A program made the translations under genes and the position numbers. A stretch of 64,000 nucleotides of DNA from Candidatus Omnitrophota bacterium (GTDB taxonomy: Bacteria; Omnitrophota; Gorgyraeia; 1-14-0-20-64-10), in contig JAMWCF010000001.1 in the NCBI GenBank assembly GCA_023818695.1, positions 211,306 through 275,305 on the forward strand. Reading direction: 5' to 3'. The notes below the pieces were generated by a model. The model was not told the DNA's origin and searched no databases. It saw nothing but the letters and a program-made list of their open reading frames with translations. Shown in pieces: positions 60,276 to 64,000 of the stretch (positions are counted from its first letter, which is position 1; every line of letters starts with the position of its first letter).

Positions 60276-61279
60276 CCGCTTCCAGGAAAATACTGGTGAC
60301 GGGAGGGTTTGGTTTTCTGGGAGCGCCGCTGACCTCGGCACTGCTGCAGCAGGGGCATGAGCTGCGGGTTTTGGACGACGCCTCCCGCGGATCGCGCCAG
60401 CGGCTGCAGGAGATCCCTGGCCGTCTGGAGATCGTGCAGGGGGATGTCAGGGATCCTGCCGCTGTCCGCAAAGCGGTCTCCGGAACCGACACCGTGTTTC
60501 ACCTGGCCGCCGTCAACGGCACTCGGACTTTCTACGAAAAACCAGATCTTGTCTTGGAGGTCGGCGTCAAGGGAACGATGAACGTTCTGGAGGCGGCGGC
60601 CGGAGCCGGCGTGAAGGAGTTCTTCTTCGCGTCCAGCTCGGAGGTGTACCAGACGGCTCACAAGGTTCCGACGGACGAAACAGAGCGTCTGATTGTGCCG
60701 GACCCTTTCAACCCGAGATACTCCTACGGAGGCAGCAAGATCATCGGAGAACTGCTGACGATCCACCTCGGGAAAAAGGCCTTCCGCAGGACGCTCGTCT
60801 TCAGGCCGCACAATGTCTATGGACCGCACATGGGCTGGGAGCATGTCATTCCCCAGTTAATCGCCAGGATCCTGCAGATGGCTTCATCGAAGGGATCCAA
60901 GGCGGAGGAAATCCGGCTGCCGATCCAGGGCTCCGGAAAGGAGACCAGGGCTTTCATCTTCATCGACGATTTCACCGACGGCCTCCTCACGCTCTTTGAT
61001 CGGGGGGAGAACATGAACATTTACCACATCGGGACGATGGAGGAAGTCTCCATTGGGGAGATCGCGTATCAGATTGCTGCGTGCCTGGGGATCAAAATTC
61101 GGCTGGTCCCGGGCAAAGAGGTCCCCGGAGGAACGTTGAAACGCTGTCCGAATACGGAGAAAATAAAGAAGCTTGGCTTTTCCCCCCGGATACCTCTGTC
61201 GGAGGGCTTGAGGAGAACCGTTGAATGGTACGCCCAACAGAAATGGCAGGAACAGAACGTGAGCTTGGCTTTCTCATGA
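60272..61279 (+). CDS. NAD-dependent nucleotide-sugar epimerase/dehydratase (SDR family)
   Basis: GTGA overlap with the upstream gene. Motifs [12 protein letters not shown] and YGGSKIIGE. Confidence 0.75.
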
Positions 61280-63138
61280 TGACATCCGCGCAGGAAAAGA
61301 TCTCGCAGCTTCGCTACGGACCGATCGACCGGTGCCAGGTCTGCTCTTCCAGAGAGCTGACCTCCGTTCTGTTTGTCGGCTATCTTCCGCCGGTCAACCG
61401 GATGCGCCCAATCGGCCGGATGCTGGATGAAGAACCCTGGTTCCCGGCGGAGATGCTTTACTGCGGACGCTGCCATCTGGTCCAGCTGGGCTACGCGGTC
61501 GATCCGAATATCCTTTTTCCCCCTGACTACCCCTACACAAGCGGGACGACCAGAATTTTGAGAGAAAACTTCGCTGACCTGTTCAGGGAGGTGAAAGAGT
61601 TAGTCGGGCTGAACCCCGGCGATCTGACCGTTGACATCGGTTCCAACGACGGCACCCTGTTGAGCAACTTCAAGGAGGGGGGATACCCGGTCTGCGGAGT
61701 TGAACCTTCTCTGACCGCTAAAATGGCCGAGGAGCGGGGTATCCCGACCCTGATGCGGTTCTTCGAGAGGGAAGCGGTCGAGGCGGTCAAGGCCGAACAT
61801 GGACAGCCGAAAATTGTCACCGCTACGAACGTCTTTGCCCACATCCACCGGGTCAATGAGCTAATGGACAACATCGAGTCGCTGGCCGGCCCGGAGGGGG
61901 TCTTCATCTCGGAATCCCACTACCTGAAGGACCTCATCGACACCCTCCAGTACGATACGATCTATCACGAACACCTGCGCTACTACTCCCTGACCAGCCT
62001 GAAATTCCTCCTGGAATCTCGCGGTTTCAGGATCTTCCATGTCAAGAGGATCCCGACGCACGGCGGATCGATACGGGTCTACGCCTCCAAATCGAAACGC
62101 TATACCCTTCGGGGATCGGTTGAAAGCCTCCTGAAAGAGGAACAGCAAGCCGGGCTGACGGGTCCCTCCTGGATCCCTTCCTTTCGGAGGAGGGTCATCG
62201 AATCGAAACTCAAACTTTACGACCTGCTGTACGATCTGAAACGGCAGGGCAACGCGATCTACGGGATTGGCGCACCCTCCAGGGCCAGCACCCTGATCAA
62301 TTACGTGGGGCTCGACGACGGCATTCTGGACTGCGTGCTGGAGGTGAAGGGATCAAAGAAGACCGACAAGTACATGCCGGGCACCAAAATCCCAGTACTG
62401 GAAGAAAGCAAGCTATATGCTGACCAGCCGCCGTATGCCCTGTTTCTCTCGTGGCACATCTCCTGGGAATTAAGTCGGAATCTTGCCCAGCGCGGTTACA
62501 CGGGGGATTTCATCACTCCTCTGCCCGAACCGGAGATCCTCCCGAATGCGAATCGCACAGGCAGGCGAACGGGCGCATCTCCCGCGCTCCAGACCCGACT
62601 GGAAAAGGGGTTCTGCGTTTGGTTCACCGGCTTAAGCGGGGCCGGCAAAACCTCCATTGCGCAACGGTTGGAATCCCTCCTCCGATGCAACGGCCAGACG
62701 GTGACCATGCTTGACGGTGATGTGGTCCGAACCCACCTGTCCAAAGGGCTCGGTTACAGCAAGGAAGACAGGGACGCCAATATCCGCCGGATCGGTTTCG
62801 TGGCCTCTGAGATCGTCCGGCACAGGGGCATCGCCGTTTGCGCGGCCATCAGCCCCTACCGGTCCGTCCGCGATGAGTGCAGGCGGATGATCGGCCCGGA
62901 GCAATTTATCGAGGTCTTTGTCGACACGCCGCTGGAGATCTGCGAAAAGAGGGACACCAAGGGGATGTACGCCAAGGCCCGCCGAGGAGAGATCAAACAG
63001 TTTACGGGGGTCGATGATCCTTATGAACCGCCACTCAAGCCGGAGATCACCTTGACGACAACCGATTCGACGCCGGAAGAGGACGCCCGGAGAGTCCTCC
63101 GCTTCCTTCAGGAAAGGGGATTTGTGACTGCGGGATGA
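61276..63138 (+). CDS. Fusion of an NDP-hexose C-methyltransferase (TylCIII-like) and adenylylsulfate (APS) kinase
   Basis: The N-terminal part has zinc motifs CQVCSS...[12 protein letters not shown] motif [10 protein letters not shown] and [12 protein letters not shown]...[10 protein letters not shown]. The C-terminal part has [12 protein letters not shown] and LDGDVVR...[25 protein letters not shown], typical of CysC. Confidence 0.8.
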
Positions 63139-64000
63139 AGGCAACCGGTACCTTCCAAAAGATTCCGGCATTCTCCGGCACCGCCATGGAAGCGCCAGCG
63201 CCGCTGGTCGCCATTTTCGGATCCGGCCGTAGCGGCACGACGCTCACGCTGCGCCTGCTGGACGGGTCGGAGGGGCTTTGGGTCTACCCCATTGAAATCA
63301 ACCTCCTTTCCATCTTCGGGCAGGATCAGAATGCGGAAAAACGGCGGCTCCTTTTCAGGGAGTGGGCCGAAAAACAGATCCGAGAACTGGAGATGACGTA
63401 CGTTTCCCTCCTCCAGGAACCACTGCGCTCGCGGGGCAATCCGCTGGATTTCCTCCAGGAAGAGGACATCGGCGGCAACCCGGCCTCCTGTCTGAAAAAG
63501 TTTCTTCAATCGATCAGGCGTAACTATGACACCCGCCACCTGGATGGGACCCCTTTGCTCGTCTTCAAATCAATCGAGGTTGCAGATCTGGCCAAATATG
63601 AGCGGCTCGATCCGTCGATGCGCTTCATCCATATCATCCGAGACCCTTTGACGAACTACGCCTCGCTCAAGAGAACCGACATGATCGCCAAGAAGAAACC
63701 GTTCTGGTTCCAGGGCGGAGACATCCTGCGGCTGCAGCTGGAAGGACGCTGGATTCCCCATGCCAGGCAGGTCATGGACCGGATCCAATCCCAGCCCCAG
63801 CGGCACTATCTCGTCAGGTACGAGGAGATCTGCAGCCAGCCGGCGAAAACGATTACAGCCCTTTGCCGCTGGCTCGGGGTTTCCGCTCCACGCGACATCG
63901 CGCTTCAAACGGTTCTGGGTGGAAGGCGAATGAAGGAACTGCCGGCAAACCCCAGCAAACCGAGCGTCAAAACCCCGGAGAAGGTCATCGCTGACATGGC
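63135..64000 (+). CDS. Sulfotransferase-family protein, 3'-truncated by the window edge
   Basis: ATGA overlap with the upstream gene. The frame is open to the window end. My own translation shows a 5'-PSB-like motif FGSGRSGTT and a 3'-PB-like motif [13 protein letters not shown]. Confidence 0.7.

What the first reader, a model, noticed from the sequence alone, without database searches (positions are those of the whole stretch)
61276..64000. NDP-hexose C-methyltransferase fused to APS kinase, coupled to a sulfotransferase
One 620-aa ORF joins two parts:
- A complete TylCIII-type sugar C-methyltransferase (zinc ribbon, SAM motif, C-terminal HGGS region).
- A complete CysC-type APS kinase (P-loop GLSGAGKT through DDPYEPP).

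A short linker ([23 protein letters not shown]) connects them. Its stop overlaps (ATGA) the start of a sulfotransferase with PAPS-binding-like motifs (GSGRSGTT and IIRDP..N..S).

A dedicated PAPS supply fused to a sugar-tailoring enzyme points to on-site sulfation of a branched-chain methyl sugar. I do not recognise this arrangement as described. No ATP sulfurylase is present in the window.
Basis: partly seen in the sequence, partly recalled or inferred. Interest (0 to 1): 0.7.

Follow-up and report, generated by a model that had tools for sequence, protein, structure and literature searches.

The report
Methyltransferase–APS kinase fusion in sulfated-glycan cluster
A real but one-off fusion joins a sugar C-methyltransferase to a PAPS-making APS kinase in an Omnitrophota surface-glycan gene cluster; more notable is a recurring, undescribed cluster type nearby that links a sulfotransferase to sialic-acid-like sugar synthesis and the glycan export pump.

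Summary
Window 61276-63138 (+) is one 620-aa ORF. It contains an intact TcaB9/MtmC-type sugar C-methyltransferase (aa 20-417) and an intact APS kinase (aa 444-593). Its stop overlaps (ATGA) the start of a PAPS-type sulfotransferase.

- **Authenticity.** The same ORF is in the NCBI MAG record and on 4 Logan contigs. One of them, L084, matches the window with 0 mismatches over 12.8 kb.
- **Rarity.** No other protein pairs these two domains among the listed hits: the best 150 of 1.84 billion representatives, and 80 GTDB loci.
- **Downstream gene.** L084 shows the "sulfotransferase" is the N-terminal third of an 832-aa sulfotransferase-Wzt protein (ABC ATPase plus Wzt_C domain).
- **Family context.** Stand-alone relatives of this sulfotransferase sit next to nonulosonic-acid genes in 25 of 25 loci. 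They are adjacent to wzt in 12 of 12 ABC-type loci. An APS kinase or Sat-CysC, and a C-methyltransferase, are often nearby.
- **C-methyltransferase family.** It normally occurs with no sulfation genes (0 of 55 loci).

I read the kinase half as supplying PAPS to the adjacent sulfotransferase. The fusion probably reflects shared cluster membership, not coupled catalysis. The sulfation target is more likely the nonulosonic-acid-bearing glycan than the C-methyl sugar. No ATP sulfurylase lies within 73 kb. This is a new variant of a known kind.

The parts
61276..63138 (+). Fusion ORF, 620 aa (637 aa if started at the ATG at 61225): sugar C-methyltransferase joined to APS kinase.
   Evidence: It equals NCBI MCM8811690.1. 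The 637-aa form is on 4 Logan contigs.
61333..61518 (+). Cys4 zinc-binding domain (aa 20-81; C20, C23, C63, C66).
   Evidence: PF08421, 46.6 bits. Aligns to the zinc domain of MtmC and TcaB9.
61564..62040 (+). Class I SAM-binding domain (aa 97-255; DIGSNDG, AHI, IYHEH).
   Evidence: PF13489, 68.4 bits. From memory of the TcaB9 papers, the catalytic residues are H181/Y222/E224/H225; their counterparts appear conserved in the alignment.
62053..62526 (+). C-methyltransferase C-terminal domain (aa 260-417).
   Evidence: PF08484, 129.6 bits. PDB 4rv9, E 4e-67, aligned to aa 424.
62551..62601 (+). Junction (about aa 426-442, [19 protein letters not shown]). No in-frame ATG, GTG or TTG between aa 400 and 464.
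   Evidence: Stand-alone C-methyltransferases end 4-9 residues after the PLPxP motif. Stand-alone APS kinases have 3-12 residues before the core.
62605..63054 (+). APS kinase domain (aa 444-593): P-loop [27 protein letters not shown].
   Evidence: PF01583, 209.7 bits. TIGR00455, 211 bits against 138.7. 246 bits to the APS kinase domain of Aquifex Sat/APS kinase 2gks. 70% identical to the kinase domain of an in-cluster Sat-CysC in L116.
63135..64000 (+). N-terminal sulfotransferase domain of an 832-aa sulfotransferase-Wzt fusion. It runs off the window and would end at window-equivalent 65633.
   Evidence: PF13469. L084 11911-14409 adds ABC_tran (aa 453-584) and Wzt_C (aa 668-793). It equals P0122.
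60272..61279 (+). SDR epimerase/dehydratase, 335 aa. Its best NCBIfam hit is LegB, below cut-off. Its stop overlaps the fusion's start.
   Evidence: It accompanies the C-methyltransferase family in 54 of 55 loci.
59715..60275 (+). NUDIX hydrolase.
58618..59718 (+). FkbM-family methyltransferase.
57481..58617 (+). DegT-type aminotransferase. Its best hit is the LegC family, below cut-off.
56216..57484 (+). NDP-sugar dehydrogenase.
   Evidence: It accompanies the C-methyltransferase in 47 of 55 loci.
55530..56219 (+). Formyltransferase.
53351..54193 (+). Wzm (ABC-2 permease), the partner of the downstream Wzt.

Best explanation
This is a genuine, lineage-specific, end-to-end fusion of two enzymes that belong to one surface-glycan gene cluster exported by an ABC transporter (Wzm/Wzt).

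- **N-terminal half.** It is a SAM-dependent NDP-4-keto-sugar C-methyltransferase. It works with the adjacent NDP-sugar dehydrogenase, SDR, DegT aminotransferase and formyltransferase to make a C-methyl amino sugar.
- **C-terminal half.** It is an active APS kinase that converts APS to PAPS. It can only be made as part of the fusion, because the junction has no internal start codon.
- **Use of the PAPS.** The translationally coupled next gene uses it. That gene is a ~375-aa sulfotransferase fused to the Wzt ATPase and its C-terminal carbohydrate-binding domain.
- **Sulfation target.** The sulfotransferase most likely O-sulfates the nonulosonic-acid-bearing part of the lipid-linked glycan at the cytoplasmic face, before Wzm/Wzt exports it.
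- **APS source.** It must come from an ATP sulfurylase encoded elsewhere in the genome.
- **Meaning of the fusion.** It ties expression and location of the PAPS supply to the pathway. It does not couple two consecutive reactions.

Shown: ORF continuity, domain identity, motif integrity, uniqueness among the proteins examined, and the gene-neighbourhood statistics. Inferred: enzyme activities, PAPS hand-over, the acceptor, and any cap or export role.
For: **The fusion is real.**
- The same ORF occurs in the NCBI MAG contig and on 4 Logan contigs.
- L084 has 0 mismatches to the window over 12,776 nt.
- GC3 is uniform at 0.74 across the junction.

**Both halves are intact.**

**The kinase cannot be made alone.** There is no in-frame start codon between aa 400 and 464.

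**The downstream gene** is sulfotransferase + ABC_tran + Wzt_C, with an ATGA overlap. Wzm lies upstream.

**Neighbourhood of the sulfotransferase family**, in 25 loci with at least 5 kb downstream:
- NeuB 25, NeuC 24, CMP-transferase 22, the p584 homologue 23.
- Wzt in 12, always adjacent to the sulfotransferase.
- APS kinase in 11, C-methyltransferase in 12.
- Complete Sat-CysC genes lie in clusters L116 and L097. The L116 kinase domain is the closest relative found to ours, at 70% identity.

**The NulO module tracks the sulfotransferase.** NeuB is 69-77% identical in nearly all of these loci. It is only 39% identical in the syntenic, sulfotransferase-less relative L001. There a Methyltransf_24 gene is present instead.

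**Independent parallels.**
- Wzt-sulfotransferase fusions in the opposite order use an unrelated sulfotransferase subfamily (P0211, P0239).
- An SDR::APS-kinase fusion lies beside a Sulfotransfer_3 gene in L172.
Against: - The fusion is a singleton, so selection for it cannot be shown.
- No ATP sulfurylase lies within 73 kb, so APS supply is unverified.
- The nearest solved relative of the sulfotransferase family is the polyketide sulfotransferase CurM. Carbohydrate specificity is therefore inferred from context only.
- In Wzx-type (Nitrospira) clusters the same sulfotransferase occurs without Wzt. A cap or export role cannot be its general function.
- Wzt_C scores 29.5 bits against Pfam's gathering score of 30.4.
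- A C-methyltransferase is present in about half of the sulfotransferase loci. A link between C-methylation and the sulfated residue is therefore not excluded.
Confidence: 0.6

Rival explanations
1. One reading: the sulfotransferase sulfates the branched C-methyl sugar made by the methyltransferase half, and the fusion delivers PAPS on site for that step.
For: - The two genes are translationally coupled.
- By my reading of the maps, a C-methyltransferase lies in about 11 of 15 sulfotransferase-family loci that have enough upstream flank.
- If the SDR and DegT next to the C-methyltransferase are the LegB/LegC steps (their best NCBIfam hits), the C-methyl sugar could feed the NulO pathway. The sulfated residue could then be a C-methyl NulO.
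Against: - The C-methyltransferase family at 53-76% identity has no sulfotransferase or APS kinase within 10 kb in 0 of 55 loci, and NeuB in only 3 of 55.
- The sulfotransferase is found without a C-methyltransferase in several loci (L098, L102, L116, L119). It is never found without NeuB.
- The methyltransferase reaction does not use PAPS.
Confidence: 0.2
2. Artefact: two adjacent genes were merged by an assembly or sequencing error (a lost stop codon or an indel).
For: - The architecture appears in only one organism.
- The neighbouring gene is also an unusual fusion.
- The source is a metagenome-assembled genome.
Against: - The NCBI contig and 4 separately assembled Logan contigs of different lengths carry the same ORF.
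- Both domains are in the same frame, with no stop in between.
- No start codon is available for a separate kinase.
- Composition is uniform across the junction.
Confidence: 0.05
3. The kinase half serves general sulfur assimilation, or is only a structural or oligomerisation module, and the fusion to the methyltransferase is neutral for glycan sulfation.
For: - There is no in-cluster ATP sulfurylase.
- The kinase domain is closest to domains of Sat-CysC enzymes. From memory, some of these have inactive kinase-like domains, for example 3cr8.
Against: - All catalytic motifs are intact, and the domain scores 246 bits against the APS kinase domain of Aquifex Sat/APS kinase 2gks.
- Its stop overlaps the start of a PAPS-type sulfotransferase.
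- APS kinase recurs in sulfotransferase clusters of this family.
Confidence: 0.1

Closest known systems
NodP/NodQ + NodH (Sinorhizobium Nod-factor sulfation) and RaxP/RaxQ + RaxST (Xanthomonas): pathway-dedicated PAPS synthesis next to a sulfotransferase (from my own knowledge)
   Same: An APS kinase is encoded inside a biosynthetic cluster, directly beside the PAPS-dependent sulfotransferase it presumably feeds.
   Different: In those systems the kinase is fused to CysN, or accompanied by an ATP sulfurylase. Here the fusion partner is a sugar C-methyltransferase and no sulfurylase is nearby. The acceptor also differs.
Bifunctional ATP sulfurylase-APS kinase (Aquifex aeolicus, PDB 2gks; NCBIfam NF004040)
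   Same: The C-terminal APS kinase domain scores 246 bits against it, and all motifs are shared. In-cluster Sat-CysC genes of related loci reach 70% identity.
   Different: The N-terminal ATP sulfurylase and PUA domains are absent and replaced by a C-methyltransferase. The whole-protein score is 288 against a cut-off of 669.
TylCIII / TcaB9 / MtmC / KijD1 NDP-hexose 3-C-methyltransferases (PDB 3ndi, 4rv9, 5t64)
   Same: It has the same three-domain layout (Cys4 zinc domain, SAM domain, C-terminal domain) and the same catalytic residues.
   Different: Those enzymes are stand-alone proteins of about 410-430 aa in antibiotic deoxysugar pathways. This one sits in a cell-surface glycan cluster and carries an extra kinase domain. 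The methylated position and the substrate are unknown.
Capped-glycan export: WbdD or WbbB terminators with CBM-bearing Wzt (E. coli O9a, Klebsiella O12/O4/O7; PMC11231755, PMC9445017, PMC3482155)
   Same: There is a Wzm/Wzt transporter whose ATPase carries a C-terminal Wzt_C domain. A small-group transferase is encoded beside it.
   Different: The proposed chemistry would be sulfate, not methyl, phospho-methyl or Kdo. The modifying enzyme is fused to Wzt itself rather than to a coiled-coil ruler protein. Nothing has been shown experimentally.
SDR::APS kinase fusion P0373, next to a Sulfotransfer_3 gene (L172)
   Same: An APS kinase domain, 63% identical to ours, is fused C-terminally to a tailoring enzyme and lies adjacent to a sulfotransferase.
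   Different: The partner is a short-chain dehydrogenase. The context looks like lipid or terpenoid metabolism (squalene cyclase, MMPL, P450), not glycan synthesis.

Membership tests
TcaB9/TylCIII-type sugar C-methyltransferase (Pfam PF08421 + PF08484) | N-terminal four-cysteine zinc domain | tested here: met
   PF08421 scores 46.6 bits against 31.3. CxxC...CxxC aligns with MtmC and TcaB9.
TcaB9/TylCIII-type sugar C-methyltransferase (Pfam PF08421 + PF08484) | Class I SAM fold plus the C-terminal Methyltransf_14 domain | tested here: met
   PF13489 scores 68.4 bits and PF08484 129.6 bits. PDB 4rv9 matches at E 4e-67 over aa 17-424.
TcaB9/TylCIII-type sugar C-methyltransferase (Pfam PF08421 + PF08484) | Catalytic His and Tyr-x-Glu-His residues (TcaB9 H181, Y222, E224, H225; numbering from memory) | tested here: met
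   AHI and IYHEH align with TcaB9 CHI and IYDEH, and with MtmC AHI and IYHEH.
TcaB9/TylCIII-type sugar C-methyltransferase (Pfam PF08421 + PF08484) | C-methylation of an NDP-4-keto sugar | not testable with these tools
   This needs an enzyme assay. Context (SDR in 54 of 55 loci, NDP-sugar dehydrogenase in 47 of 55) is compatible with it.
APS kinase (CysC; PF01583, TIGR00455) | Model score above the curated cut-off | tested here: met
   PF01583 scores 209.7 against 21.1. TIGR00455 scores 211.3 against 138.7.
APS kinase (CysC; PF01583, TIGR00455) | P-loop, LDGD(x)VR, ISPY and DxPYExP motifs | tested here: met
   [20 protein letters not shown] and DDPYEPP are all conserved in the alignments with 2gks and 5cb6.
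APS kinase (CysC; PF01583, TIGR00455) | Phosphorylation of APS to PAPS | not testable with these tools
   This needs an enzyme assay.
Bifunctional PAPS synthase (Sat-CysC or CysN-CysC) | ATP sulfurylase (or CysN GTPase) domain in the same protein | tested here: not met
   Only the kinase part of NF004040 and NF004035 matches: 288 against 669 and 195 against 715. There is no Sat-like sequence in the window or in L084.
PAPS-dependent sulfotransferase (PF13469) | 5'-phosphosulfate-binding loop and 3'-phosphate-binding R...S motif | tested here: met
   PF13469 scores 59.3 against 27. GSGRSGTT and [12 protein letters not shown] align with the family consensus, including the invariant R169 and the near-invariant S177, and with CurM ST.
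PAPS-dependent sulfotransferase (PF13469) | Identity of the acceptor | not testable with these tools
   There is only neighbourhood evidence, namely NeuB in 25 of 25 loci.
CBM-bearing Wzt of capped-glycan ABC exporters | Wzt-type nucleotide-binding domain with a Wzm partner | tested here: met
   Aquifex Wzt (6amx, 7k2t) matches at about 225 bits. The ABC2_membrane gene is at 53351-54193.
CBM-bearing Wzt of capped-glycan ABC exporters | C-terminal Wzt_C carbohydrate-binding domain | tested here: inconclusive
   PF14524 scores 29.5 bits against a gathering score of 30.4, E 8.5e-7. The domain is listed in the precomputed table for P0122. It is 57-58% identical to the C-terminal regions of related Wzt proteins.
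CBM-bearing Wzt of capped-glycan ABC exporters | Terminator enzyme with a coiled-coil ruler, and a cap required for export | not tested
   No coiled-coil search was run. The conserved tail of the sulfotransferase (aa 300-375) has no transmembrane segment.

The most novel reading that the evidence does not exclude
Sulfate is a previously unrecognised chain-end cap for glycans exported by ABC transporters. A dedicated sulfotransferase, adjacent to wzt in relatives and fused to Wzt here, would sulfate a terminal nonulosonic acid. The Wzt C-terminal domain would read that sulfated cap as the export signal. PAPS would be made on site by an APS kinase tethered to another pathway enzyme, so the whole set would work as a membrane-associated assembly. 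The same sulfotransferase-NulO module in Nitrospira would then account for the co-occurring 'sialylated and sulfated' extracellular polymers reported from granular sludges (PMC10483923).
Probability: 0.25. Interest if true: 0.7.

Novelty: new variant of a known kind. Interest (0 to 1): 0.45.

Why it matters
On its own the fusion is a curiosity. It occurs in one organism, and its two halves do not catalyse consecutive steps.

Its value is as a pointer. It led to a recurrent gene-cluster type that I did not find described in the held literature. The cluster occurs in MAGs and metagenome contigs from Nitrospira, Omnitrophota and other, unidentified sources. It joins four things:
- a specific ~375-aa sulfotransferase family;
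- a specific nonulosonic-acid pathway;
- PAPS synthesis genes;
- in ABC-type versions, the Wzt exporter.

This gives concrete candidate genes for bacterial sulfated, sialic-acid-like surface glycans. Work on wastewater granule polymers says the responsible enzymes are unknown (PMC10483923). It also yields a testable hypothesis for a new capping chemistry in ABC-transporter-dependent glycan export.

Tried and rejected
- **Exact-protein look-up.** The 620-aa form is not on record. The 637-aa form worked.
- **GTDB genome scan.** It did not return the source genome. All 80 loci had stand-alone C-methyltransferases, with no APS kinase or sulfotransferase of this kind within 10 kb.
- **Other copies of the architecture.** I found none among the best 120 word-index hits or the best 150 of 1.84 billion representatives. 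Clustering could hide members, since the query itself is not a representative.
- **Sat-CysC origin of the linker.** An alignment of the junction with Sat-CysC interdomain linkers showed no convincing homology.
- **Membrane anchor in the sulfotransferase tail.** There is no transmembrane-like segment, and I draw no conclusion from the hydrophobic-moment values.
- **p584.** There was no useful PDB hit by sequence and only a weak Capsule_synth match. It could not be submitted for structure prediction because it lies outside the window.
- **Literature.** Nothing was found on this fusion, on sulfotransferase-Wzt fusions, or on sulfotransferase-NulO clusters. Mann, Kimber & Whitfield 2019 (Glycobiology 29:822) is a census of terminator chemistries that may already list sulfotransferases. 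It is not held here.
- **Structure prediction.** I did not run it, because the sequence-level matches to solved structures were already unambiguous.
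Full report
**1. Observation**

The region holds one open frame, 61225-63138 on the + strand. The ATG at 61276 overlaps the stop of the upstream SDR gene (ATGA).

Pfam finds these domains:
- Methyltransf_13, aa 20-81.
- Methyltransf_23, aa 97-255.
- Methyltransf_14, aa 260-417.
- APS_kinase, aa 444-593, E 2.7e-62.

NCBIfam's apsK model scores 211 bits against a cut-off of 138.7. 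The stop overlaps the next ATG (ATGA at 63135-63138). The next ORF matches Sulfotransfer_3.

**2. Are the two halves intact?**

The methyltransferase half aligns end to end with MtmC (4rv9, E 4e-67), TcaB9 (3ndi) and KijD1 (5t64). It keeps the four zinc cysteines, the AHI histidine and the IYHEH motif. By my recollection of the TcaB9 papers, that motif corresponds to Y222/E224/H225.

The kinase half scores 246 bits against the APS kinase domain of the Aquifex bifunctional enzyme 2gks. It keeps the P-loop, LDGDVVR, ISPYR and DDPYEPP.

Stand-alone C-methyltransferases end 4-9 residues after the PLPxP motif. Stand-alone APS kinases have 3-12 residues before their core. The junction therefore holds only about 10-15 residues of unassigned linker. 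It has no in-frame ATG, GTG or TTG between aa 400 and 464. The kinase can only be made as part of the fusion.

**3. Is the fusion real?**

The protein is NCBI MCM8811690.1, from a Candidatus Omnitrophica MAG contig of 697 kb. The 637-aa form of the same ORF is on four Logan contigs, assembled separately from public runs. One of them, L084 from SRR27730039, matches the window with no mismatch over 12,776 nt. GC3 is 0.74 on both sides of the junction. I put an artefact at about 5%. Read mapping would settle it.

**4. Is it found elsewhere?**

I found no other case.
- All other members of the best 120 word-index hits are stand-alone proteins of about 420 aa, at 76% identity or lower.
- All 80 GTDB loci carry stand-alone genes.
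- A full HMMER pass over 1.84 billion cluster representatives returned no protein that matches both halves.
- Cluster representatives can hide members, so "unique" means "not seen", not "proven absent".

A partial analogue exists. P0373 is a short-chain dehydrogenase fused to an APS kinase, directly downstream of a Sulfotransfer_3 gene, in a lipid-like context.

**5. What lies around it?**

L084 extends the window by 9.1 kb. The "sulfotransferase" turns out to be the first ~375 residues of an 832-aa protein. That protein continues as a Wzt-type ABC ATPase (about 225 bits to Aquifex Wzt) and a Wzt_C domain. The Wzt_C match is E 8.5e-7, at 29.5 bits against a gathering score of 30.4.

Downstream of it lie:
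- a CMP-transferase whose best hit is PseF;
- NeuB;
- a NeuC-type 2-epimerase;
- a CBS protein;
- a 584-aa protein with a weak Capsule_synth match;
- glycosyltransferases.

Upstream of the fusion lie:
- Wzm and a glycosyltransferase;
- a formyltransferase;
- an NDP-sugar dehydrogenase;
- a DegT whose best hit is LegC;
- an FkbM methyltransferase and a NUDIX hydrolase;
- an SDR whose best hit is LegB.

Further upstream are Gmd, RmlB/RmlD-like genes and other sugar-nucleotide genes.

This is a surface-glycan cluster exported by an ABC transporter, and it includes a nonulosonic-acid (NulO) branch. No ATP sulfurylase or CysD/CysN is present in the window or the extension.

**6. Which genes travel together?**

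*The C-methyltransferase family.* Members are 53-76% identical to ours and occur across bacterial and archaeal phyla. In 55 loci of at least 15 kb, the family sits with the SDR in 54, the NDP-sugar dehydrogenase in 47, NUDIX in 22 and DegT in 20. NeuB is present in only 3. A sulfotransferase or APS kinase is never present.

*The sulfotransferase family.* The sulfotransferase domain belongs to a family of stand-alone proteins of about 375 aa, 45-51% identical to ours, many from Nitrospira. I examined 25 loci with at least 5 kb downstream of the sulfotransferase:

| Gene near the sulfotransferase | Loci (of 25) |
|---|---|
| NeuB | 25 |
| NeuC | 24 |
| CMP-transferase | 22 |
| 584-aa protein homologue | 23 |
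| Wzt | 12 (adjacent to the sulfotransferase in all 12, never fused) |
| APS kinase | 11 |
| C-methyltransferase (41-49% identical to ours) | 12 |

Some of these loci are near-duplicates of one another.

Two loci carry a complete Sat-CysC inside the cluster (L116, L097). The L116 kinase domain is the closest relative of ours that I found, at 70% identity.

*The window's locus is a mosaic.*
- Its left part is closest to L001, with the C-methyltransferase at 76% identity.
- Its right part is closest to L087/L092, with NeuB at 73%, against 39% in L001.
- L001 has no sulfotransferase or APS kinase. It carries a Methyltransf_24 gene and a stand-alone Wzt.

**7. Interpretation**

The kinase half most plausibly makes PAPS for the translationally coupled sulfotransferase. 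It also has precedent in cluster-dedicated sulfate activation, such as NodPQ-NodH and RaxPQ-RaxST (from my own knowledge).

The proposed target, a branched C-methyl sugar, is not supported. The sulfotransferase tracks the NulO module and Wzt, not the C-methyltransferase module. The more likely acceptor is the NulO-bearing part of the lipid-linked glycan.

One caveat remains. A C-methyltransferase is common in sulfotransferase clusters, and the SDR and DegT beside it could double as the LegB/LegC steps. A C-methylated NulO as the sulfated residue therefore cannot be excluded.

Methylation does not use PAPS. The fusion is therefore best read as a "Rosetta-stone" joining of two cluster members. 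The likely route is loss of a stop, or replacement of the Sat part of an ancestral Sat-CysC. It is not evidence of substrate channelling.

**8. The more novel reading**

Wzt carries the Wzt_C domain. In characterised systems this domain binds a chain-end cap (PMC11231755, PMC9445017). Three observations bear on this:
- This sulfotransferase is always next to wzt in ABC-type clusters, and is fused to it here.
- Fusions in the opposite order (ATPase-Wzt_C-sulfotransferase; P0211, P0239) use an unrelated sulfotransferase subfamily (22% identity over 108 aa), so they arose independently.
- Wzt fusions to a Methyltransf_24 domain also exist (P0232).

Together these suggest that sulfate may serve as a cap read by the transporter. 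Against this, the same sulfotransferase also occurs in Wzx-type Nitrospira clusters. There is no experimental evidence either way. I give this reading about 25%.

**9. Literature**

The held library has nothing on this fusion, on sulfotransferase-Wzt fusions, or on sulfotransferase-NulO clusters.
- An Aeromonas O-antigen cluster has an unexplained sulfotransferase-domain gene beside wzt (PMC4483657).
- Work on granular-sludge polymers reports co-occurring sialylation and sulfation, and states that the responsible sulfotransferases are unknown (PMC10483923).
- The 2019 census of terminator chemistries by Mann, Kimber and Whitfield could not be read here. It may already anticipate part of this.

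**10. Verdict**

- As a single-organism fusion of non-consecutive enzymes, its own interest is moderate.
- The recurrent sulfotransferase-NulO-Wzt cluster it exposes is the more valuable lead.
- Novelty: a new variant of a known kind.

Noticed in passing
window 63135-64000, continuing in L084 11911-14409: The downstream 'sulfotransferase' is an 832-aa fusion of a complete ~375-aa sulfotransferase with a Wzt ABC ATPase and a Wzt_C domain. Related loci keep the two as adjacent, separate genes.
   Followed up: yes
L087, L089, L092, L094-L119 (metagenome and Logan loci): A recurrent cluster type that I did not find described: a sulfotransferase of this family with CMP-transferase, NeuB, NeuC and a 560-590-aa protein. 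It often also has an APS kinase or Sat-CysC and a C-methyltransferase. Many examples are from Nitrospira.
   Followed up: partly
L004-L083 (GTDB loci): The C-methyltransferase is 53-72% identical in these loci across very distant lineages, including CPR bacteria and DPANN archaea. It almost always lies next to the same SDR (54 of 55 loci) and NDP-sugar dehydrogenase (47 of 55). This looks like a conserved sugar module whose product I could not assign.
   Followed up: partly
L172 8001-9584: A short-chain dehydrogenase fused to an APS kinase, directly downstream of a Sulfotransfer_3 gene. Neighbours include squalene cyclase/epoxidase-like, MMPL and P450 genes. This may be a lipid sulfation cluster.
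   Followed up: no
window 55530-56219 versus L001 4354-4905: A formyltransferase occupies the position where the syntenic relative has a hexapeptide-repeat acyltransferase. This suggests N-formyl rather than N-acetyl decoration of the amino sugar.
   Followed up: no
window 6896-9334: A single 812-aa ORF combines the NADH dehydrogenase 20-kDa, 30-kDa and 49-kDa subunit domains, which looks like a NuoB-C-D fusion.
   Followed up: no
window 1122-3842: A 906-aa ORF whose only Pfam signals are short, weak LSM / SM-ATX-like matches. Its function is unclear.
   Followed up: no
window 40710-43385: An 891-aa ORF with no Pfam match, immediately upstream of the sugar-nucleotide genes that open the glycan cluster.
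   Followed up: no
P0232 and P0237: Other Wzt fusions exist in metagenomes: Wzt + Methyltransf_24 (783 aa) and Wzt + asparagine synthase domains (1104 aa).
   Followed up: no
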